Shown piece after piece: positions 38,845 through 52,399 of a DNA stretch of 54,771 nucleotides. Position 1 is the stretch's first letter. Each line of letters begins with the position of its first letter. Position numbers and translations under genes: made by a program. Below the pieces are notes generated by a model, which did no database searches, was not told the DNA's origin, and was given only the letters and a program-made list of their open reading frames with translations. This stretch comes from Parcubacteria group bacterium (GTDB taxonomy: Bacteria > Patescibacteriota > Minisyncoccia > Phycocordibacterales > CSBR16-119), in contig CALRFT010000005.1 of NCBI GenBank assembly GCA_943356745.1, positions 1 through 54,771 of the forward strand. The letters run 5' to 3'.

Positions 38845-40149
38845 TTACTCTTTATTTTCTGTAGTTAAAGTGACCTTAATATCTTCATTACTATCCGGGA
38901 ATCGATTGAGCCAGAATGGGTTGATATCAAATTCAACATACTGAACACCTGGATACTTTGCAATGATATTCTGAAATTCCTTCTTTTTTTGACCCACAAG
39001 GTCAAAACTAAGAGCTTCTGTATTTACGATTGATATAATTTCAAGTACATCGTCTATCTGAAAAGCTAGATTTTCAAGAGATTCTGGATTTACAGTTTGA
39101 GATACTGGATCAACATATGAAATATTAAGGTCTCGTAGGTTTGAGATATAAGCAGTTTCTTGATCAACACCCACGATTGAAGTTTGGAGTATGTAGTTTT
39201 CGAATTCAACAGCATTAAACAGAACATTGAAAAGTGATCCAGAAAGTGTAATGAGTATAGTTCCATCTTCTTGTATAGATTCTTTAATTTCAGTATTCAT
39301 AAGAGTACTGAGATTTTCTGGAAATACTGTTTTTTCAGGAACTTGCGCTCGAGATTTTTCAAAAAGTTCACCACGAAGCTTTTCTTGTAGCTCAGCTACA
39401 ATTCGGTCTTTTTCTTCTTGAGGTACAACCATTCGTTCACCGACAAATCCCCCTTCTATTGAACCGAGAGTTTGAGCTGTAATAGTATCAAACTTTGGAC
39501 TTTTTGCTTCTTGGAAACCAATTAATTTCAAGGTTTGAACTTCTGTTTGGTTGTATGTATCCCCTGCTTTTTCGGCATAAATATCAACCTCGACTGTACC
39601 TGGAGCTGGTTTTCCATCTTTTGTTGTTTGTCCTGGAACACTCACAGCTTCTTTTGTTTTATAAATCCTTCCCTTGTCATCCACTAAACGTGTATCAATT
39701 CGAAGGGGTTGTGCCTCGGGACCATGATTATTTGAGATAACCACCCTTCCCACAGCTTGCTCTTCAACCATTTGCTTTTCTCCAGAACTTGCGGATACAC
39801 TTACAGAACCATCAACAATCATGGTTTCGAATGTGAGTTCTTTTGAGACTGACTTTTTGTATGCAATAAATCGCTCATTGAGTGGTGTGTTTTCTATTGT
39901 TGGAGTAATAACAACTTCTGCGCCTGTAAAAAATACAGACAGACCAAAAAATAATCCGAGTATGAGAACAAATGCTAAATACCACAGACCTTTTCCACCT
40001 CCACTTGGATGATTGTGTCGTGAATTGCCAAGACGACTCGGCGATGTTACCGGAGTTCTTTTGAGAGGTTTTTGAGGTTCACTGTGGCGATATTCATTAC
40101 CGTAGTGAGTCATTGGTTTTTTTATATCATGTAACTTACTGAGTGACAT
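38845..40149 (-). CDS. single-pass membrane protein with large extracytoplasmic domain, hypothetical
   Basis: Basic and His-rich N-terminus, one TM helix (LWYLAFVLILGLFFGLSVFF), then ~350 aa outside. 5-nt gap to the upstream gene. Confidence 0.65.
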   Translation of the reverse strand: MSLSKLHDIKKPMTHYGNEYRHSEPQKPLKRTPVTSPSRLGNSRHNHPSGGGKGLWYLAFVLILGLFFGLSVFFTGAEVVITPTIENTPLNERFIAYKKSVSKELTFETMIVDGSVSVSASSGEKQMVEEQAVGRVVISNNHGPEAQPLRIDTRLVDDKGRIYKTKEAVSVPGQTTKDGKPAPGTVEVDIYAEKAGDTYNQTEVQTLKLIGFQEAKSPKFDTITAQTLGSIEGGFVGERMVVPQEEKDRIVAELQEKLRGELFEKSRAQVPEKTVFPENLSTLMNTEIKESIQEDGTILITLSGSLFNVLFNAVEFENYILQTSIVGVDQETAYISNLRDLNISYVDPVSQTVNPESLENLAFQIDDVLEIISIVNTEALSFDLVGQKKKEFQNIIAKYPGVQYVEFDINPFWLNRFPDSNEDIKVTLTTENKE

Positions 40150-40154
40150 AGTGT

Positions 40155-41294
40155 TTATTGTATTACCTTTATACTTGTAAAAGCAGCGTATATCATCAAT
40201 TTAAAGTCTGGTTCTAGAATTTTTGCACTCAAGAAAGGTTGGAGTGCTTCTGCATTCATTAGTATAGCATGCAAATTTTTGTCTGATACTGAAAGATGTT
40301 TATTTCTTGGATCTTCTAATGCATTCTTAATCCAGAAAAATGTTGTTGGTTTGGAAATTACTACACAATGTTCTGGAAGTGGAATATTTTTTGTAACTTC
40401 CTGAAGAGAAGAAACAAAGTGTCTTCTCCACTCTTCTTGAACATTTGATACTGTTTTCCGAAGACCCAAAGATGCGTTCTGGTGCATAGTTCCTTGATTG
40501 AGAGTTTTAAGCTCAGAAAGAATAATATCTGGATGAATATTTTGTTCCCCTGCTTTTGAGAAAATGAGATGTTCACCACTCAAGATAACCTCTCCGTGAA
40601 CAAGCGAACCTTGATTGATGATTGAAACTTCACTATACAAACCTTCAATCGAAACTAAAACAAAATTATCAAGATATTGAAACGCATCTCGACTCACCAC
40701 GGACTGCACCAGCATTGAAGTATGGAAATAGATATCTTTTGATGTATGTCTTTCTATTGTATTTTGAAGTATTTGTTTAATATCTTTCCCCACAAGACTC
40801 ACGTAACTTGAAACTTCCACTCGTCTTGTATATTCTTTTTTGAAATCATGAATCTCGTATCCATTAATTCCAATATGAAGAATATTTTTTTCAAGAATCT
40901 CAAAATCTCCTTGATCTTTGTAGGTATTATAAAAATCTTGAACAGTATCTTTGAGAATCTTTTTTACATCTCTTTCCCGAAATACAAACGGAGCTTCTTC
41001 GTCTCGAATATAAGTATCCATGTGAGATATGTACCACGGAGAAGAAAGCACACAGAGAACCTGATCTATTTTTGTTGGTTTTTTTTGAATAAGTGCACTA
41101 ATTGCAAGATCAAGAGTCTTACTAATGTTTTGAATTGAATAGTGGTCACCCTGAACAGTTTGAATATGTTGTGCGATGATATATGGTTTTTGATGATCTG
41201 AAACATTTACAAAACAGGTTCGAATATGCGAACTTTCAACACTTATCACAAGATGGTTTTGCGATGTTGGTTTTTTTGAACCAAAGAAAAACAT
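40155..41294 (-). CDS. hypothetical protein, possibly a divergent actin-fold (PilM/FtsA-like) protein
   Basis: N-terminus MFFFGSKK...LVISVESSHIR resembles the PilM/FtsA phosphate-1 region, but the DxG is replaced. 379 aa. Weak call. Confidence 0.4.
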   Translation of the reverse strand: MFFFGSKKPTSQNHLVISVESSHIRTCFVNVSDHQKPYIIAQHIQTVQGDHYSIQNISKTLDLAISALIQKKPTKIDQVLCVLSSPWYISHMDTYIRDEEAPFVFRERDVKKILKDTVQDFYNTYKDQGDFEILEKNILHIGINGYEIHDFKKEYTRRVEVSSYVSLVGKDIKQILQNTIERHTSKDIYFHTSMLVQSVVSRDAFQYLDNFVLVSIEGLYSEVSIINQGSLVHGEVILSGEHLIFSKAGEQNIHPDIILSELKTLNQGTMHQNASLGLRKTVSNVQEEWRRHFVSSLQEVTKNIPLPEHCVVISKPTTFFWIKNALEDPRNKHLSVSDKNLHAILMNAEALQPFLSAKILEPDFKLMIYAAFTSIKVIQ

Positions 41295-41347: not shown

Positions 41348-43117
41348 TTATTCCAATACTGCTTTGATTCTTCGAATACCAGCACTTGAAGCTTCTTCTT
41401 TTTGGATTTTAAATGTTCCGAGTGTGTTTGTATTTTCCACGTGTGGACCACCGCAAATTTCGAGTGAGTACATTTCATCTCCATTTCCGATTTGATACAA
41501 GGTTACAGTTTCTCCGTACTTGTCACCAAAGAGTCCAAGAGCACCCTTGTTTCGAGCGTCTTCGAGCGGAACTTCTTGGAAAGAAATCGGAAGACTATCT
41601 TTGATTTTCTCATTTACAATTTGTTCTACTCGTTTGATTTCTTCTGGTGTCATTTTCTCATTGTGAGAAAAATCAAATCGAAGTCGCTCTGGTGTGATGT
41701 TTGATCCTTTTTGGAATACATGATTTCCCAAAACATCTCGAAGTGCCTGATGCAAAAGATGAGTTGCTGTGTGGTATTTTACTTCCATGTCTGAATGACC
41801 AGCAAGACCTCCTTTGAATTTTTGTTCTGCGCCGAGTCGTGATTTATCTTGGTGTTCTTTCATCTTTGAATGGAAATCATTTTCATCAATACTTTCGCCT
41901 CGAGAAAATGCAAGCTCTTTTACCATCTCAAAAGGAAAACCATATGTTGTGAAAAGAATAAAAGCATCTCGCTCACCTTTTTCAAATTCCTTCAACCCAG
42001 AAATCAAAGTCTTTTCAAACTTTGCAATTTCATCTTGAAACACAACAACGCTTTGAGCTTGCATTGTTCCATACACAGAATCATATTGCTTTTGAATCAA
42101 AACAAAGATATCTGCCAATTTTTCAAATGGAATTTCAATTTTTTGTGCGTTCACCATCGCTCGACGAATAATTCTTCGCAAAATATATCCTCGGTCTTTA
42201 TTACTTGGAACAACACCATCAGAAATCAAAAACATTGAGGCTTTGATGTGGTCAGCAATAATTCTTGCACTTATTCCTTGGTACATGAGTGCATCTTTTT
42301 TAATTGATTCCAAAATATCTGAAAACAAATCTGTTTCAAACACATTTGTTTTTCCTTGCACCACCATTGTCACACGTTCAAGTCCTGCACCTGTGTCTAC
42401 GTTTTGTTTTGGAAGTGGACCAACAACCTTTCCAGCTTTTTGCTCAAAAGCCATAAATACATCATTCCAAATCTCAACAACTTTTTGTTCGTCGTCTGCT
42501 TTCAAAAATTCTTCATGAGTAAGTCCGTCAACAAGAGTTCCTGTGACATCATAAAACATTTCTGTACTTGGACCCGCCGGAGAATCTGGTCCCGCTGTCC
42601 ACCAATTACTTTTTGAAGAAAGATAGAAAATTCTTTTTTCAGGATCGAGTCCGTGTTCGTTAAAGATAGCTCGCCAAATACCCGCTGCTTCTTCATCTCG
42701 AGCAACATTTTCATTCCCCGCAAAAACTGTTACATAGAGTCTATTGATATCAAGTCCGAGTCCTTCATCCTTTGAGGTAAGAAATTCAAAACTCCATTTG
42801 ATTGCATCTTCTTTAAAGTATGTTCCAAGAGACCAGTTTCCAAGCATTTCAAAAAATGTGAGATGAGTATTGTCACCCACTTCTTCAATGTCATTTGTTC
42901 GCACGCATTTTTGTGAACTTGCCAGCTTTCCACCTCCTGGATGTTCTTCACCAAGAAGGTATGGAATAAGAGGTTGCATTCCTGCAGTATTAAAAAGTGT
43001 TGCGTTTGTTTGTCCTTTTTCATCGGTAGTTACCAAAGAAGCCGAAGGAAGCACTGTGTGTTCCCGCTTTTCAAAAAAGTCCAAAAACCGCTTTCGTATT
43101 TCATTACTTGTTAGCAT
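41348..43117 (-). CDS. alaS: alanyl-tRNA synthetase, short form ending after the editing domain
   Basis: MLTSNEIRKRFLDFFEKREH..., editing-domain HTATHLLH and CGGPHV motifs. Start reset to the ATG at 43117. The 14 codons upstream belong to the repeat/terminator element. Confidence 0.92.
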   Translation of the reverse strand: MLTSNEIRKRFLDFFEKREHTVLPSASLVTTDEKGQTNATLFNTAGMQPLIPYLLGEEHPGGGKLASSQKCVRTNDIEEVGDNTHLTFFEMLGNWSLGTYFKEDAIKWSFEFLTSKDEGLGLDINRLYVTVFAGNENVARDEEAAGIWRAIFNEHGLDPEKRIFYLSSKSNWWTAGPDSPAGPSTEMFYDVTGTLVDGLTHEEFLKADDEQKVVEIWNDVFMAFEQKAGKVVGPLPKQNVDTGAGLERVTMVVQGKTNVFETDLFSDILESIKKDALMYQGISARIIADHIKASMFLISDGVVPSNKDRGYILRRIIRRAMVNAQKIEIPFEKLADIFVLIQKQYDSVYGTMQAQSVVVFQDEIAKFEKTLISGLKEFEKGERDAFILFTTYGFPFEMVKELAFSRGESIDENDFHSKMKEHQDKSRLGAEQKFKGGLAGHSDMEVKYHTATHLLHQALRDVLGNHVFQKGSNITPERLRFDFSHNEKMTPEEIKRVEQIVNEKIKDSLPISFQEVPLEDARNKGALGLFGDKYGETVTLYQIGNGDEMYSLEICGGPHVENTNTLGTFKIQKEEASSAGIRRIKAVLE

Positions 43118-43126
43118 GGGACTAGT

Positions 43127-43185
43127 ATACAAAATTTCCCTCTTTCCGACCAGAGCCACAAAAAATCCCCTTGTGAGGGGATTTT
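43127..43185 (-). repeat. 59-nt direct repeat, left copy (terminator hairpin + promoter-proximal segment)
   Basis: ATACAAAATTTCCCTCTTTCCGACCAGAGCCACAAAAAATCCCCT-TGTG-AGGGGATTTT. 45 + 10 nt are identical to 45234..45292; only the 4-nt loop differs. Confidence 0.9.
43156..43185 (-). terminator. intrinsic terminator after the repeat-protein gene
   Basis: Minus-sense AAAAUCCCCU-CACA-AGGGGAUUUU followed by UUGUGG. Confidence 0.7.
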
Positions 43186-43188
43186 AAT

Positions 43189-44214
43189 TTAAGCTGCCAA
43201 AATTTCTTGGCATTTTTCGTTGAGAACAGACTGAATTGAAGAAGGTTGACTTTTAAGAGTTTGTGTCTTTACAAAAACAGAAAACCAGTCCGGTATATGT
43301 TCTTTTGAAACAAGAGAAATCAACTCCATCATCCGAATTTCGATTTGTTTTTCAAGATAAGATCCATCCGTTGAATCTTCAAATCGTTTTTGTAAGATTT
43401 GATAGTTGGTCTCATCTTCATTCAACTTCATCATTCGAATTTCGATTTGTTTTGAAATGTCGGAATCAGAATGTGTGTTGTCTAGTCGTTCTTGTAAGAT
43501 TTGATAGTTGGTCTCATCTTCATTCAACTCCATCATTCGAATTTCGATTTGTTTTGAAATGTCGGAATCAGAAGATGTCTTATATAGTCGTTTTTGTAAG
43601 ATTTGATAGTTGGTCTCTGTCTTATTCAACTCGATCATTCGAATTTCGATTTTTTTTGCAAGATAAGATCCATCCGTTGAATCTACCCACCGTTCTTGTA
43701 AGATTTGATAGTTGGTCTCTGTCTTATTCAACTCGATCATTCGAATTTCGATTTGTTCTCTAAGGTCTGAACCCAAAGCTGTGTTGTCTAGTCGTTCTTG
43801 TAAGATTTGATAGTCAACAATCTTCGGGAGTTGTTCCTTATTCAACTCCATCATTCGAATTTCGATTTGTTTTTCAAGGTCGGAATCAGAAGATATGTTG
43901 TCTAGTCGTTCTTGTAAGATTTGGTAGTTAGCAATCTTCGGAAGTTCTTCCTTATTCAACTCGATCATTCGAATTTCGATTTGTTTTTCAAGGTCTGAAC
44001 CAGAAGGTGCGTCGCATAGTCGCTCTTGTAAGATTTGATAGTTAATCTCTGTCTTATTCAACTCGATCATTCGAATTTCGATTTGTTCTCTAAGGCCTGA
44101 ACCCAAAGGTGCCTTGTCTAATCGTTCTTGTAAGATTTGATAGTTAATCTCTTCTGAAATAGGTAAATTTTTGATACCTAAAAAAGATTTAATCTGTTTT
44201 TCTAAAGTGCTCAT
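43189..44214 (-). CDS. tandem-repeat protein: 8 x 34/38-aa helical repeats with a hypervariable loop
   Basis: Repeats have the form NYQILQ(E/K)R(L/W/F)-xxxxxx-S(D/G/Y)(L/I)xxQIEIRM(I/M)ELN-linker. No family recognised. Own TTGACA-16-TAATGT promoter at 44242..44269. Confidence 0.75.
   Translation of the reverse strand: MSTLEKQIKSFLGIKNLPISEEINYQILQERLDKAPLGSGLREQIEIRMIELNKTEINYQILQERLCDAPSGSDLEKQIEIRMIELNKEELPKIANYQILQERLDNISSDSDLEKQIEIRMMELNKEQLPKIVDYQILQERLDNTALGSDLREQIEIRMIELNKTETNYQILQERWVDSTDGSYLAKKIEIRMIELNKTETNYQILQKRLYKTSSDSDISKQIEIRMMELNEDETNYQILQERLDNTHSDSDISKQIEIRMMKLNEDETNYQILQKRFEDSTDGSYLEKQIEIRMMELISLVSKEHIPDWFSVFVKTQTLKSQPSSIQSVLNEKCQEILAA
43318..44145 (-). repeat. in-frame 102/114-bp tandem DNA repeats (8 units)
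   Basis: Repeated strings such as TCGAATTTCGATTTGTTT... / CGTTCTTGTAAGATTTGATAGTT are visible every 102-114 nt. Confidence 0.85.
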
Positions 44215-44280
44215 TTTATTGTATTATTTATGTTTTGTTTTACATTACACTAATTATCAAACATGTCAATGTTATAAGAG

Positions 44281-44319
44281 TCACAAAAAATCCCCTTGTG
44301 AGGGGATTTTTTGTGGCTC
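44281..44319 (-). terminator. intrinsic terminator after the SET-fusion gene (third copy of the hairpin)
   Basis: CACAAAAAATCCCCT-TGTG-AGGGGATTTTTTGTG. Confidence 0.8.
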
Positions 44320-44329
44320 TTTTTTGTTT

Positions 44330-45223
44330 TTATATATCTTCAGTTAATTTTTTTATATATCCATTTTTCTTCATTTCATCAAATAAAATCCAATCCGCCG
44401 TATAGTCAATATATTTTTTCTTAAATTCTGAAGGAAGATCCCTCCAGGGTAAAATCTTACCTAAACATTGTTGAGACCCACATAAACAAACACCTTCAGG
44501 ATTTTTCCAATCTGAATTACAAAACAAACTATAACAATATGTTAACTCTTCACCTGGGTGTATGTCTCTTAAGGTTGTGACAAAAAATAAATCTTTAACA
44601 TAACAATTGGGTTCACAAGAATGATTGAGTTTAACTGCATTTGTATTAAATCCATTTCTATAGAAATATTTATGAAAAGGAACGGCATGATCAGCTGCGT
44701 AAATGAATACCTGAGATTCTTTTTCTGCGAAATGAATTTGTCCATCAACATAAGAAATCTGGGTTTCTGCAGGAATAAAATCTTTTGCAAAAACACCAGA
44801 ACCTTTTTCGTCTGTTGTTAATATTTCAACTCTATTATCTTCTTGATATGTTAAAGGATCCGGTATTTCATGATATGAGAAATTTTTCATATCAAATTCT
44901 TTTATTACAAAATCTATAGCTTGCTTTGTGTCAAATTGTTTGCATGAGTAAATATCTACTGTTGCAAAATTTGAATTAGTCCAAACATAAGTACTCACAC
45001 CTGACTCTGCCCACACTAAAGTACCTTCAAATCCATCATGCAATGGGACGCTTTTTCCAGTGGCACTTGATATAAAAGGTCCCGCAATAATCGTCATTTC
45101 CAATTCTTGAGATAGTCTTCTCAAAAAAGAATCAACAAAATCTTCTGATTTTATTTCCTTTTGAAATAAACCTTCGATAATTAAACGTTTTCTGAAAATA
45201 TTTTTTGCTAAATTCGAATTCAT
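44330..45223 (-). CDS. fusion protein: AdoMetDC (SpeH/SpeD)-like N-terminal domain + SET + post-SET lysine methyltransferase domain
   Basis: N-terminus ...GFEGTLVWAESGVSTYVWTNSNFATVDIYSCKQ... follows the pyruvoyl AdoMetDC core pattern. C-terminus has GSGVFA, NHSCEPNC, ELTYCY and CLCGSQQC. ATG at 45223 (MNSNL) has TATGAT 7 nt upstream. Alternative ATG at 45235. Confidence 0.78.
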   Translation of the reverse strand: MNSNLAKNIFRKRLIIEGLFQKEIKSEDFVDSFLRRLSQELEMTIIAGPFISSATGKSVPLHDGFEGTLVWAESGVSTYVWTNSNFATVDIYSCKQFDTKQAIDFVIKEFDMKNFSYHEIPDPLTYQEDNRVEILTTDEKGSGVFAKDFIPAETQISYVDGQIHFAEKESQVFIYAADHAVPFHKYFYRNGFNTNAVKLNHSCEPNCYVKDLFFVTTLRDIHPGEELTYCYSLFCNSDWKNPEGVCLCGSQQCLGKILPWRDLPSEFKKKYIDYTADWILFDEMKKNGYIKKLTEDI

Positions 45224-45233
45224 GTAGTTAATC

Positions 45234-45292
45234 ATACAAAATTTCCCTCTTTCCGACCAGAGCCACAAAAAATCCCCTCACGAGGGGATTTT
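45234..45292 (-). repeat. 59-nt direct repeat, right copy
   Basis: Same sequence as 43127..43185 except the loop is CACG rather than TGTG. Confidence 0.9.
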
Positions 45293-46673: not shown

Positions 46674-47243
46674 TTATTTAGGAACACACGCAAAGTACCA
46701 CTTAGTACTCCAATTTTTCTCACGGTAAGCCACTCCCTTACAAGGTTTTTTACGATCAAAATATGCAAAAGCAGCATAACATGTATTACCATTTTCATCT
46801 CGCCACTGAGTGGCATTTGGATAATCCATAGCTAGTAACATCTCTTGCTCATTTAAATCACACAGAGTTACAAAGTCAACAAGCTTAAAACCAATATCAT
46901 CTATTCGCTCCTCAAGTTCGATAGGTGAAAGCTCTTCCCTGAAAGGAATAAGGTACACCTTCACCTTTTTGGCTTTTGCTTTTGGTGCAGCAAGTAAGAC
47001 ATCGTGATTGTAACCCTCTGAAACTGTTATAGAATTAATTGAATACCAAGCATCTTGAGGACTCAGAGTGGTGTCAACTTTAATTATTCGAGTTAGCTGA
47101 TTATCAACAAACACTTTCAAAGTGTCCACCGAAGGTGTTTGCCCCAACTGTTCTTCAGCAATTGTAGCCACGGTTTGTTTTTCTGTAGATTCTGCATTAC
47201 AACTTACAATACAGAGTGAGATAAAAATAATTAAGTATTTCAT
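46674..47243 (-). CDS. putative lipoprotein, hypothetical
   Basis: Signal peptide with a lipobox-like LCIVSC. Cys-containing C-terminal domain. Confidence 0.62.
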   Translation of the reverse strand: MKYLIIFISLCIVSCNAESTEKQTVATIAEEQLGQTPSVDTLKVFVDNQLTRIIKVDTTLSPQDAWYSINSITVSEGYNHDVLLAAPKAKAKKVKVYLIPFREELSPIELEERIDDIGFKLVDFVTLCDLNEQEMLLAMDYPNATQWRDENGNTCYAAFAYFDRKKPCKGVAYREKNWSTKWYFACVPK

Positions 47244-51370: not shown

Positions 51371-52399
51371 TTAGATTGAGGTATATCGCCCATCTTCAAG
51401 ACGTGTGAAATACTGTGGGTTTTGGAGATTAACAAGAATAGTGTTTCGTTTAAGGAAACGTTCTTTCATAACATGGTCCACGATCTCATCGCGAGTAAGT
51501 GGTCCATATTTTTCAAGAATTTCTTTGATAACATCTCGAACAACTCCTGGTTTGTATCCCCATTCTCGGAGACCATACTTACCTCGTCCAACCAAAACAA
51601 ATCGGCTGTCTTTAATAAGTTCATTGTGAGTTGTTGCTGGATGAGTTTTCTTTCCAAAGAGTTCTGTAATTGCCTCTGCAACTTCTCGGAAGTGCATTGG
51701 ATTACCATGCTTTCTCATAACAAGAAATGCATAATCTTTTACTCCTCGAACTTTTACATTCTTTGAGTGAGATTTCCCCCATTCATTGAGTGGGTTTGGA
51801 GAAACTTTTTTAGAAATTCGAAGCCATCGTTTTGCGATTTCAAGATCTCGATGTTCTTCATTGATATCTTTGATTTGTTGCAAAAGCTTATCAACGATTT
51901 CTGCCTCTGTCATGATTTCATCATCTTTCAAATTTTTATAAAGATTTTGAAGAGCGTCATGAACATTTGTAAGAATTTGATTATCTGTTGTCCATCGTGT
52001 TTTAAAGTACTCGTTTTCTTTGTGAAGCTTGAAGTGATCTCCAAGTACCAATAAGAAGTACAAATGATTTTGAGTTGCTTGATCATCAGCAAGAGCCTCA
52101 AGAAGTTCTTCCTCATTTACAGCTCCTCCAAGTTCATGAATCATTGTTTTGAGTTCATCAAAGTGAATTTGTGCTGATTCAAATTCATCTGATTTTCGGA
52201 TTGAATTGAGAGCAGAGTTTTCAATTTGACGTACTCGTTCTCGAGTGATGCCATATTTTTGACCAATAGCTTCAAGTGTTTTTCTTTGAGCATCTGTTTT
52301 CAGCCCAAACCGACTTGAAACCACGTCGAGTGATCGGTCACGAAGAGCCCCGAGAAGGTCTTTTGTGACTTGCTTTGGTTTAAATGATAATTTTGCCAT
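51371..52399 (-). CDS. sigma-70 region-4-like HTH protein with C-terminal HARE-HTH-like domain
   Basis: N-terminus ...RKTLEAIGQKYGITRERVRQIENSALNSIRK (region 4.2 pattern). C-terminus ...MHFREVAEAI...VLVGRGKYGLREWGY. Confidence 0.68.
   Translation of the reverse strand: MAKLSFKPKQVTKDLLGALRDRSLDVVSSRFGLKTDAQRKTLEAIGQKYGITRERVRQIENSALNSIRKSDEFESAQIHFDELKTMIHELGGAVNEEELLEALADDQATQNHLYFLLVLGDHFKLHKENEYFKTRWTTDNQILTNVHDALQNLYKNLKDDEIMTEAEIVDKLLQQIKDINEEHRDLEIAKRWLRISKKVSPNPLNEWGKSHSKNVKVRGVKDYAFLVMRKHGNPMHFREVAEAITELFGKKTHPATTHNELIKDSRFVLVGRGKYGLREWGYKPGVVRDVIKEILEKYGPLTRDEIVDHVMKERFLKRNTILVNLQNPQYFTRLEDGRYTSI

What the first reader, a model, noticed from the sequence alone, without database searches (positions are those of the whole stretch)
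43189..44214. Unclassified 34/38-aa tandem-repeat protein with an invariant scaffold and a hypervariable 6-residue loop
There are eight consecutive repeats. Positions 1-8 (NYQILQER) and 21-30 (QIEIRMIELN) are almost invariant. Positions 10-15 differ in every unit: DKAPLG, CDAPSG, DNISSD, DNTALG, VDSTDG, YKTSSD, DNTHSD, EDSTDG. Two units carry a 4-aa linker insertion (LPKI). A near-identical helical scaffold with variation focused in one short patch is the design of modular recognition repeats such as TALE, PUF, PPR and designed TPRs, where variable residues read out a polymer or ligand. The high nucleotide identity between units suggests recent expansion or concerted evolution. I recognise no known family. 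The gene has its own promoter and sits next to a SET methyltransferase fusion, which suggests a targeting module paired with a modifying enzyme. That link is speculation.
Basis: partly seen in the sequence, partly recalled or inferred. Interest (0 to 1): 0.78.

Follow-up and report, generated by a model that had tools for sequence, protein, structure and literature searches.

The report
New helical-repeat protein family in CPR bacteria
The gene is real and encodes eight helix-loop-helix repeats from a small, unnamed protein family of ultra-small (CPR) bacteria, but the evidence points to a fast-evolving binding scaffold rather than a TALE-like code reader, and it is not linked to the neighbouring SET methyltransferase.

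Summary
Window 43189..44214 (-) is a 341-aa ORF with a 23-aa N-terminal helix, eight 34/38-aa repeats and a 42-aa C-terminal tail.

The protein has no Pfam, NCBIfam, PHROG, PADLOC or PDB relative. A profile search did find an unnamed family of about 50 clusters in Patescibacteria/CPR contigs. Members share the repeat, the optional LPxI insert and both end caps, and carry 1 to about 12 repeats.

AlphaFold2 with the family alignment, run on the 4-repeat orthologue P0001, gives pLDDT 92.8. Each repeat is a short helix A, an ordered 5-6-residue loop and a long helix B. Foldseek finds no close structure (TM below 0.4).

The "invariant scaffold" is also invariant at synonymous sites. The eight loops fall into four classes inherited from a 4-repeat array. 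Across the family the loop has its own consensus (N-T-S-S-G-S-E) and is no more variable than the helix surfaces. This pattern fits unequal crossover and gene conversion.

The protein is acidic (pI 4.7), which argues against TALE/PPR/PUF-like nucleic-acid reading.

The SET link is refuted. Related genomes carry GDH-repeat-AlaRS or GDH-SET-AlaRS, so each gene is an independent cassette bounded by terminator hairpins.

Most likely function, by inference only: a capped alpha-solenoid protein-binding adaptor.

The parts
43189..44214 (-). CDS of the 341-aa repeat protein (ATG at 44214, stop at 43189-43191)
   Evidence: ORF list. Orthologue P0001 has the same start and stop. Family of 51 clusters.
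44146..44214 (-). N-terminal cap, residues 1-23 (MSTLEKQIKSFL...). It carries the family-conserved 'L..FL' helix.
   Evidence: Alignments A3/A4 give the consensus FL motif. Helix 3-11 in the model.
43318..44145 (-). Array of eight repeats (residues 24-299). Each unit is helix A (YQILQERL), a loop (positions 10-15 plus the N-cap Ser16) and helix B (xLxKQIEIRMxELN).
   Evidence: Secondary structure.
43933..43944 (-). LPKI 4-residue insertion at the end of repeat 2 (residues 91-94)
   Evidence: The same LPxI insert recurs across the family. In the model of P0001 it lengthens helix B (H75-94, 20 residues).
43819..43830 (-). LPKI 4-residue insertion at the end of repeat 3 (residues 129-132)
43189..43317 (-). 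C-terminal cap (residues 300-341, ISLVSKEHIPDWF...EILAA) plus stop. It carries the family-conserved IPxWF ... PxF ... K..L motif, modelled as two helices.
   Evidence: Alignments A1-A5. Helices 170-177 and 186-201 in the P0001 model.
44242..44269 (-). Putative promoter: TTGACA (44269-44264), 16-nt spacer, TAATGT (44247-44242). About 62 nt here are identical in L001.
   Evidence: Sequence read, alignment. The consensus scan did not report it because the -10 box is weak.
44276..44321 (.). Terminator-like hairpin (20-bp stem) after the SET fusion gene. It forms the upstream boundary of the repeat-gene cassette.
43160..43187 (.). Terminator-like hairpin (AAAATCCCCTCACAAGGGGATTTTTT) after the repeat gene. 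It forms the downstream cassette boundary and is followed by the leader CTGGTCGGAAAGAGGGAAATTTTGTAT that precedes AlaRS.
45270..45291 (.). Third copy of the hairpin core, after GDH. It is followed by the same leader, which here precedes the SET fusion.

Best explanation
The gene encodes a cytoplasmic, acidic, capped alpha-helical hairpin-repeat protein of the alpha-solenoid class. It belongs to a previously unnamed family that has been seen only on contigs that are named as, or whose gene content looks like, Patescibacteria/CPR.

Each 34-residue unit has three parts:
- a short helix A, with family consensus Y-x-x-L-x-x-R-W/L;
- an ordered S/T/D/G-rich loop that ends in an invariant helix-N-capping Ser;
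- a long helix B, with consensus I-E-x-R-M-x-E-L. An optional LPxI insert lengthens helix B by about one turn, giving a 38-residue unit.

A conserved N-terminal helix and a conserved C-terminal IPxWF two-helix element cap the array.

The array evolves by unequal crossover and gene conversion. These processes homogenise the helices, down to synonymous sites, and change the repeat number (1 to about 12 across the family). Older loop variants persist. The eight units here are a rearranged expansion of a four-loop-type array.

The gene is a monocistronic accessory cassette in a hairpin-bounded hotspot between GDH and AlaRS, and it is independent of the SET gene.

Function is inferred, not shown. 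The most likely role is a protein-binding adaptor or scaffold whose loop edge and exposed helix faces form a rapidly changing interaction surface. It is unlikely to be a nucleic-acid code reader.
For: Shown:
- Repeat anatomy.
- A family of 51 clusters at E <= 1e-3, 19 of them at E <= 1e-10, sharing repeats, the LPxI insert and both caps.
- CPR origin. The best AlaRS matches are 59% identical and come from Patescibacteria MAGs. P0004 is a hypothetical protein of Candidatus Jorgensenbacteria.
- A high-confidence model of orthologue P0001: pLDDT 92.8, pTM 0.83, two helices per repeat, and loop-containing 10-residue blocks at mean pLDDT 85-96.
- The best Foldseek hits are alpha-solenoids (designed repeat proteins, BamD TPR, HAT) at probability about 0.9, although TM stays below 0.4. 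The best PDB sequence hit is the designed helical repeat DHR14, which has the same S-T-D-S-E-L capping loop.
- Concerted evolution. Repeats within one gene share lineage-specific synonymous codons. Scaffold dS is 0.115 against loop dS of 0.49-0.56.
- The eight loops form four classes; three of them match units r2-r4 of L001 at the nucleotide level, and the fourth (w1/w4) is only tentatively paired with r1.
- Copy-number polymorphism. The proteins are 186 aa and 148 aa in loci with the same flanks (L088 versus L089/L083), a difference of one 38-aa unit. Long-read contigs carry 10-12 units.
- Cassette behaviour. Three configurations occur at one hotspot, with hairpin direct repeats at the boundaries.
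- There is no conserved neighbour across about ten contexts.
- No catalytic or other known domain was detected.
Against: - No partner, ligand or expression data exist, so the binding role is inferred from the fold class only.
Exposure of the loop residues and their alignment along one edge could not be measured.
- Loop dN/dS is about 1.4 in the window gene. In L002 there are 0 synonymous against 24 non-synonymous pairwise differences. These figures rest on few independent events and also fit simple relaxation of constraint.
- Net charge varies widely across the family, so members may not share one class of target.
- One homologue (P0010) has a Sec-type signal peptide, so cellular location is not uniform.
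Confidence: 0.55

Rival explanations
1. Structural spacer or ruler with no specific recognition. The protein is a rigid helical rod whose length (repeat number) is what matters. Loop variation is neutral drift in the least constrained segment, and it survives because gene-conversion tracts cover the helices.
For: - Family loops carry a consensus and are no more variable than the helix surface positions.
- Several homologues have identical loops in all repeats.
- Repeat number is the most variable property.
- Loop dN/dS is close to 1 in the window gene.
Against: - Homologues with 1-2 repeats would make a poor ruler.
- Among recent duplicates of the w3/w6/w7 class, loops differ at 5-7 of 33 nt while scaffolds differ at about 2 of 57 nt.
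- L002 shows only non-synonymous loop changes.
Confidence: 0.2
2. Host-interaction or exported effector of an episymbiotic CPR cell. The conserved C-terminal IPxWF element (or the N-terminal helix) acts as a delivery or anchoring signal, and the fast-evolving repeats engage variable host or phage targets.
For: - Strain-level presence/absence and copy-number polymorphism.
- Synonymous divergence between the window and L001 is far lower in the cassette (5 of 77 sites) than in the adjacent GDH (90 of 238 sites; Fisher p = 2e-8). This suggests recent exchange or a sweep.
- dN/dS is higher than in the flanking housekeeping genes.
- One homologue has a Sec signal peptide.
Against: - The window protein and nearly all relatives have no signal peptide or transmembrane segment.
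- No secretion-system genes lie nearby.
- No match in 2.9 million viral contigs.
- No defence-system model matches at an individually significant stretch; only faint whole-protein matches (E 0.004-0.009, 0 significant stretches) for two homologues.
Confidence: 0.13
3. One reading: a TALE/PPR/PUF-like modular reader in which each loop specifies one unit of a DNA, RNA or other polymer, acting as a targeting module for the adjacent SET methyltransferase.
For: - The 34-aa period and the helix-loop-helix unit with variation centred on the loop resemble TALE repeats.
- The gene lies next to a SET fusion in this window.
Against: - pI 4.74 and net charge -20; each repeat has about 9 acidic and 3 basic residues.
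- No Pfam TAL_effector, PPR, PUF or TPR match even at E <= 10.
- No TALE, PPR or PUF chain among the sequence or fold hits.
- There are only four loop classes, and variation spans 6-10 residues rather than 1-2 code positions.
- Homologues with 1-3 repeats or with identical loops exist.
- SET and the repeat gene occur independently.
Confidence: 0.05
4. Acidic nucleic-acid mimic or chaperone for basic proteins, for example an anti-restriction DNA mimic or a ribosomal-protein chaperone.
For: - The protein is strongly acidic.
- Several family genes sit beside translation genes: AlaRS, L7/L12, and between L4 and L23. In the ThrRS-containing loci (L083/L088/L089) ThrRS lies two genes upstream and the immediate neighbour is a CYTH-domain gene.
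- Low-ranking fold hits include the acidic TPR chaperones Acl4 and sNASP.
Against: - 17 of 52 family members are basic (pI above 8).
- The fold hits have probability below 0.3.
- Translation genes are common neighbours in small CPR genomes, so the adjacency is not clearly enriched (inference).
Confidence: 0.05
5. Spurious or decaying ORF created by a DNA minisatellite, with no protein function.
For: A long ORF (166 aa) also exists on the opposite strand of the array. The gene is dispensable in a close relative.
Against: - Both end caps and the repeat phase are conserved down to about 25% identity.
- Scaffold dN/dS is 0.4.
- The family alignment gives a high-confidence fold.
- The promoter region and the start codon are conserved.
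Confidence: 0.02

Closest known systems
Tetratricopeptide (TPR) and related helical-hairpin solenoids (HAT, Sel1)
   Same: A 34-residue period, two antiparallel helices per unit, tandem arrays with capping helices, and typical use as protein-binding scaffolds. BamD (TPR) and the SART3 HAT domain are among the best fold hits.
   Different: No TPR-clan Pfam match even at permissive thresholds. TM is only 0.33-0.38 with rmsd around 10 A. Helix A is short (9-10 residues) and helix B long (15-20 residues). The signature (Y..L..RW ... S ... IE.RM.EL) is unrelated to the TPR consensus as I recall it. The units are near-identical and evolve in concert.
TALE repeats and TALE-likes (for example the STAR proteins of PMC11417379)
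   Same: A 33-35-residue helix-loop-helix unit, nearly identical units at DNA level, and variation centred on the inter-helix loop.
   Different: The protein is acidic rather than basic. Variation covers six or more residues in four classes rather than a two-residue RVD code. There is no sequence or fold match. Family members with 1-3 repeats exist.
Pentatricopeptide (PPR) repeats
   Same: A similar layout on paper: an aromatic residue and Leu in helix A, an acidic/Met-rich helix B, and a Pro-containing linker in the 38-residue form.
   Different: No PPR Pfam hit. The organisms differ, the protein is acidic, and there are no code-like positions. The resemblance comes from my recollection of the PPR consensus, not from a test.
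Computationally designed helical repeat proteins (DHR14, PDB 5cwh/5h78)
   Same: This is the best PDB sequence match (E about 1e-3). The alignment runs repeat by repeat, including the 'S-T-D-S-E-L' helix-capping loop. Designed repeat proteins also top the fold hits.
   Different: The match is to an artificial protein, so it reflects convergence on idealised helix-loop-helix capping motifs and not homology. Its repeat length and superhelix differ.
Rapidly evolving repeat effectors of host-associated bacteria (ankyrin, Sel1 or tandem-repeat effectors)
   Same: An accessory gene with strain-level copy-number variation and concerted evolution of repeats, in an organism with a symbiotic lifestyle (lifestyle stated from general knowledge of CPR).
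   Different: No secretion signal in this protein, no known effector domain and no linked secretion system.

Membership tests
Unnamed CPR helical-repeat family (defined here) | Repeat signature Y-x-x-L-x-x-R-[WL]-loop-S-x-x-x-x-x-I-E-x-R-M-x-E-[LV] with a 34/38-residue period | tested here: met
   Eight units match the family HMM at E = 1e-10 to 1e-12. Family consensus derived from 163 units.
Unnamed CPR helical-repeat family (defined here) | Conserved N-terminal 'L..FL' helix and C-terminal 'IPxWF ... PxF ... K..L' cap | tested here: met
   Alignments A3/A4/A5. Profile hits span the C-terminal profile positions.
TALE repeats (Pfam TAL_effector) | Sequence match to the TALE repeat model | tested here: not met
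   No hit at E <= 10 for repeat pairs or E <= 0.1-1 for 45 members. No TALE chain in the PDB profile search.
TALE repeats (Pfam TAL_effector) | Variation confined to a two-residue RVD on otherwise identical units | tested here: not met
   Positions 9-20 vary, and the loops fall into four classes.
TALE repeats (Pfam TAL_effector) | Basic, DNA-wrapping superhelix | tested here: not met
   pI 4.74 and net charge -20. No TALE structure among the Foldseek hits.
TPR clan | Match to any TPR/Sel1/HAT Pfam model | tested here: not met
TPR clan | TPR-type right-handed helical-hairpin superhelix | tested here: inconclusive
   BamD and HAT hits have probability 0.85-0.91 but TM of only 0.33-0.38 and E > 0.02.
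PPR / PUF RNA-binding repeats | Pfam PPR or PUF match. For PUF, three helices per 36-residue unit. | tested here: not met
   No hits. Each unit has two helices.
Diversity-generating-retroelement target | Nearby reverse transcriptase and template repeat | tested here: inconclusive
   No reverse transcriptase among the roughly 35 window ORFs scanned against Pfam or NCBIfam; shorter ORFs and a template repeat were not searched for. Loop variants are shared between strains at the nucleotide level and are not randomised.
   L001 has the repeat gene without SET. L096 and a second contig have SET without the repeat gene. No SET in 20 family loci and no repeat unit in 5 SET loci.

The most novel reading that the evidence does not exclude
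The family is a CPR-specific, naturally 'reprogrammable' binding scaffold. Gene conversion keeps the helices identical, while selection maintains and shuffles a small library of loop cassettes along one edge of a novel solenoid. Strains use this to retarget a host-, phage- or partner-recognition surface. The gene itself moves between strains as a hairpin-bounded cassette.
Probability: 0.12. Interest if true: 0.7.

Novelty: new variant of a known kind. Interest (0 to 1): 0.4.

Why it matters
CPR/Patescibacteria genomes are full of unannotated genes, and little is known about how these episymbionts interact with partners.

This work defines a new helical-repeat family: a signature, two caps, a confident fold model, a repeat-number range of 1 to about 12, and evidence of concerted evolution. 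The family has no counterpart in Pfam, NCBIfam or the PDB.

It also shows that the gene is a strain-variable cassette.

If the repeats prove to be a recognition surface, the family would be a compact natural scaffold of interest for protein engineering and for CPR biology. If not, it is one more orphan solenoid.

The work also removes a tempting but wrong inference: a TALE-like targeting module for a SET methyltransferase.

Tried and rejected
- Pfam, NCBIfam, PHROGs, PADLOC and PDB sequence searches with the protein, with repeat pairs and with 45 family members returned only sub-threshold noise. One member, P0028, reached 28.9 bits against DUF7441, but this came from a 17-residue stretch with no individually significant domain.
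- Single-sequence AlphaFold2 of the full 341-aa protein was unusable (pLDDT 45).
- The word-indexed homologue search found only 2 and then 12 relatives. The exhaustive profile search was needed to see the family.
- The GTDB species-representative scan for the repeat gene found nothing. Eighty AlaRS loci from CPR and other genomes contain no family member.
- Two viral-contig scans found nothing.
It worked with a narrower alignment.
- EF-hand or calcium-loop reading of the D/S/T/G-rich loop was rejected. I aligned the loops by eye to my recollection of the 12-residue EF-hand loop, and no register places the required Gly6, hydrophobic-8 and Glu12.
- The DGR idea found no support: no reverse transcriptase among the window ORFs scanned, and loop variants are inherited between strains.
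- Enrichment of translation genes as neighbours was considered and judged not clearly above expectation for small CPR genomes.
- Literature searches found no description of this family.
Full report
**1. Observation**

The window carries a 341-aa ORF at 43189..44214 on the minus strand. Tandem Repeats Finder reports an array at 43320..44145 with period 102/114 nt, 7.9 copies, 79-82% matches and score 766.

Translation gives a 23-residue N-terminus, eight units and a 42-residue tail. The units start at residues 24, 58, 96, 134, 168, 202, 236 and 270, and the first seven are 34, 38, 38, 34, 34, 34 and 34 residues long.

**2. Genomic setting**

The window is housekeeping chromosome throughout. It encodes DnaK/DnaJ, DnaB, RpoA, ribosomal proteins, five aminoacyl-tRNA synthetases, MurG/FtsW/MraY, MnmA and GDH. 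No Rfam family is hit. None of the roughly 35 ORFs scanned is a reverse transcriptase, a phage protein or a secretion-system component.

The best AlaRS relatives in GTDB are Patescibacteria/CPR MAGs at no more than 59% identity. The record of the neighbouring SET protein shows that the source contig is 518,649 bp.

**3. A family exists, but it has no name**

- The protein has no Pfam, NCBIfam, PHROG, PADLOC or PDB sequence match.
- The word-indexed search of 5.8 billion proteins found two relatives, both with four repeats: P0001 (79% identity) and P0002 (46% identity).
- A profile search of 1.84 billion representatives found 51 clusters at E <= 1e-3, 19 of them at E <= 1e-10.
- Members are 60-440 aa long. 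They share a short N-terminal 'L..FL' helix, 1 to at least 8 repeats, the optional LPxI linker insert and a C-terminal 'IPxWF ... PxF ... K..L' element.
- Two of the listed hits, P0019 (TPR-like) and P0031 (low-complexity), are probably false.
- The only named member is a 'hypothetical protein' of Candidatus Jorgensenbacteria.
- The consensus from 163 units is Y-[DN]-x-L-x-x-[RY]-W-x-[NK]-[TS]-[SP]-S-[GDN]-S-E-[LP]-[RE]-K-[QL]-I-E-x-R-M-x-E-[LV].

**4. Fold**

Single-sequence AlphaFold2 of the window protein failed (pLDDT 45) but already showed two helices per unit.

With the 46-sequence family alignment, the 4-repeat orthologue P0001 was modelled at pLDDT 92.8 and pTM 0.83. P0001 is 82% identical to the window protein in the alignment and has a near-identical C-terminus (2 differences in 43 residues). 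The model has:
- an N-terminal helix;
- four units, each with helix A (9-10 residues), a 5-6-residue loop and helix B (15-16 residues, or 20 where LPKI is present);
- two C-terminal helices.

The 10-residue blocks that contain the loops have mean pLDDT 85-96, so the loops are predicted to be ordered.

Foldseek against the PDB and BFVD gives no hit at E <= 1e-3. The best hits are designed repeat proteins, BamD (TPR) and HAT domains, with TM 0.3-0.39. The best PDB sequence hit is the designed helical repeat DHR14 (E about 1e-3), which shares the S-T-D-S-E-L capping loop. That match is convergence, not homology.

I conclude that the protein is a capped helical-hairpin repeat protein whose global geometry matches no solved structure. 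I could not obtain coordinates. That the loops line one edge therefore follows only from the topology of hairpin solenoids and was not measured.

**5. How the 'invariant scaffold / variable loop' pattern arises**

*Synonymous sites.* Scaffold codons 3-6, 22-24, 26 and 29 are identical in all eight units at all three codon positions.

| Region (Nei-Gojobori) | dS | dN |
|---|---|---|
| Scaffold | 0.115 | 0.046 |
| Loop, codons 10-15 | 0.49 | 0.69 |

The helices are therefore younger or homogenised, and the loops are older.

*Concerted evolution.* In the distant homologue L002, all four units share lineage-specific synonymous codons that differ from those of the window: TTG for Leu, AGG for Arg and ATT for Ile, against TTA, CGA and ATC here.

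*Loop classes.* At the nucleotide level the eight loops form four classes. Three of them match a unit of the 4-repeat orthologue; the fourth could not be compared at the nucleotide level.

| Class | Window units | L001 counterpart | Loop differences (nt) |
|---|---|---|---|
| 1 | w1, w4 | r1 (tentative; diverged, one-codon loop insertion, not comparable) | n/a |
| 2 | w2 | r2 | 1 |
| 3 | w3, w6, w7 | r3 | 2 (w7) |
| 4 | w5, w8 | r4 | 3 (w8) |

The array is a rearranged expansion of a four-type array. It is not made of eight independently diversified loops.

*Family-level variability.* Across the family, loop entropy is 2.4-3.4 bits, which does not exceed that of exposed helix positions (3.1-3.6 bits). 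Several homologues have identical loops in every repeat.

*Repeat number.* Copy number is polymorphic. Two loci with identical flanks encode proteins of 148 and 186 aa, a difference of one 38-aa unit. Long-read contigs carry 10-12 units.

*Selection.* Evidence for selection on the loops is weak. In L002 there are 0 synonymous against 24 non-synonymous pairwise loop differences. Among recent duplicates in the window, loops diverge faster than scaffolds. The number of independent events is small.

**6. Against a TALE/PPR/PUF-like reader**

- The protein has pI 4.74 and net charge -20. Family members range from pI 4.3 to 10.3, with 31 acidic and 17 basic among 52.
- Many members have only 1-3 repeats.
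- No sequence or fold similarity to those families was found.

**7. Against the SET link**

The neighbour at 44330..45235 (-) is an AdoMetDC-like + SET fusion. It belongs to a widespread CPR family of 56 clusters at E <= 1e-10.

At the same GDH|AlaRS site:
- L001 has GDH-repeat-AlaRS with no SET;
- L096 and a second contig have GDH-SET-AlaRS with no repeat gene.

Four other SET loci (L097-L100), in at least three different genomic contexts, lack any repeat unit. Twenty repeat-family loci (149 kb) lack SET.

Neighbours of family genes are diverse:
- CYTH, with ThrRS two genes upstream;
- TatD/UvrB ... ClpB;
- a P-type ATPase;
- L10 and L7/L12;
- RecA;
- MscS;
- CarS/RecG;
- in one case, a position inside the S10 operon between L4 and L23.

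**8. Cassette structure**

The same terminator-like hairpin core occurs exactly three times in 54.8 kb, where none is expected by chance. It lies after GDH, after SET and after the repeat gene.

The copies after GDH and after the repeat gene are each followed by the identical leader CTGGTCGGAAAGAGGGAAATTTTGTAT, which precedes SET and AlaRS respectively. The copy after SET is followed by the repeat gene's upstream region, which contains TTGACA-16 nt-TAATGT and is identical over about 62 nt in L001.

Relative to L096, the window carries a roughly 1.1-kb insertion (44285 to 43179) bounded by about 33-nt direct repeats.

Synonymous divergence between the window and L001 varies sharply across the region:

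| Segment | Synonymous divergence (pS) |
|---|---|
| GDH | 0.378 |
| Repeat gene | about 0.065 (5 of 77 sites) |
| AlaRS 5' end | 0.132 |

The difference between the repeat gene and GDH is significant (Fisher p = 2e-8). This points to recent exchange or a sweep of the cassette.

**9. Verdict**

The structural and evolutionary reading (helical repeats, no named family, concerted evolution) is supported. The recognition-code reading and the SET pairing are not.

The best explanation is a capped alpha-solenoid adaptor or scaffold protein of a new CPR-restricted family, evolving by unequal crossover and gene conversion and carried on a strain-variable cassette. Its binding function is inferred from the fold class only.

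The novelty lies at the level of a new repeat family within a known kind. Interest is moderate.

Noticed in passing
window 43160-43187, 44276-44321, 45270-45291; L096 555-625 and 1535-1610: The GDH|AlaRS interval is an insertion hotspot. The SET fusion and the repeat gene are each bounded by copies of one terminator hairpin plus a shared leader of about 27 nt. In L096 the hairpin sequence differs but is again duplicated on both sides of SET, so the copies are homogenised within each genome. The mechanism is unexplained.
   Followed up: partly
window 43189-44329 versus L001 1015-1743: Synonymous divergence between the window and its relative is about six-fold lower in the repeat-gene cassette (pS about 0.065, with the promoter region identical) than in the adjacent GDH (pS 0.378). 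This suggests recent recombination or a sweep of the cassette.
   Followed up: partly
window 44330-45235 (-): The AdoMetDC-like + SET domain fusion (about 297-301 aa) belongs to a widespread CPR family: 56 clusters, named 'SET domain-containing protein-lysine N-methyltransferase' in NCBI records. The role of the AdoMetDC-like half is unknown. The ORF-list start (TTG at 45268) lies inside the hairpin/leader, so the real start is probably ATG at 45235.
   Followed up: partly
L104 4245-5000 and L105 2394-3149: A family member, P0010, is the only one seen with a Sec-type signal peptide. It is inserted inside the S10 ribosomal-protein operon between L4 and L23, next to a small MazE-like gene.
   Followed up: no
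window 38845-40149 (-) and 40155-41294 (-): Two adjacent ORFs of 434 and 379 aa lie between AlaRS and infA-rpsM. They have no significant Pfam hit and no NCBIfam hit (the 379-aa ORF has only a sub-threshold Bromodomain match at E 0.16). Their size and position are conserved in L096.
   Followed up: no
window 51371-52399 (-): A 342-aa protein combines a Sigma-70 region 4 domain with a HARE-HTH domain, which is an unusual architecture.
   Followed up: no
window 41348-43159 (-): AlaRS is short (about 589 aa from the likely ATG at 43117). The listed GTG start at 43159 falls in the hairpin/leader.
   Followed up: no
window 46674-47243 (-): A 189-aa ORF has a lipoprotein-like N-terminus (MKYLIIFISLCIVSC) and only a weak ProRS-C_2 hit (E = 9e-4, below the cutoff).
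   Followed up: no
window 43263-43763 (+): A 166-aa ORF on the strand opposite the repeat array is a by-product of the periodic sequence and is not a gene.
   Followed up: yes
L084, L085, L086 (ENA ERZ1286166): Three syntenic contigs with many fragmented gene calls (likely long-read assemblies) carry family genes with about 10-12 repeats, broken by frameshifts. The frameshifts are probably sequencing errors. Short-read assemblies of this family may therefore under-count repeats.
   Followed up: partly
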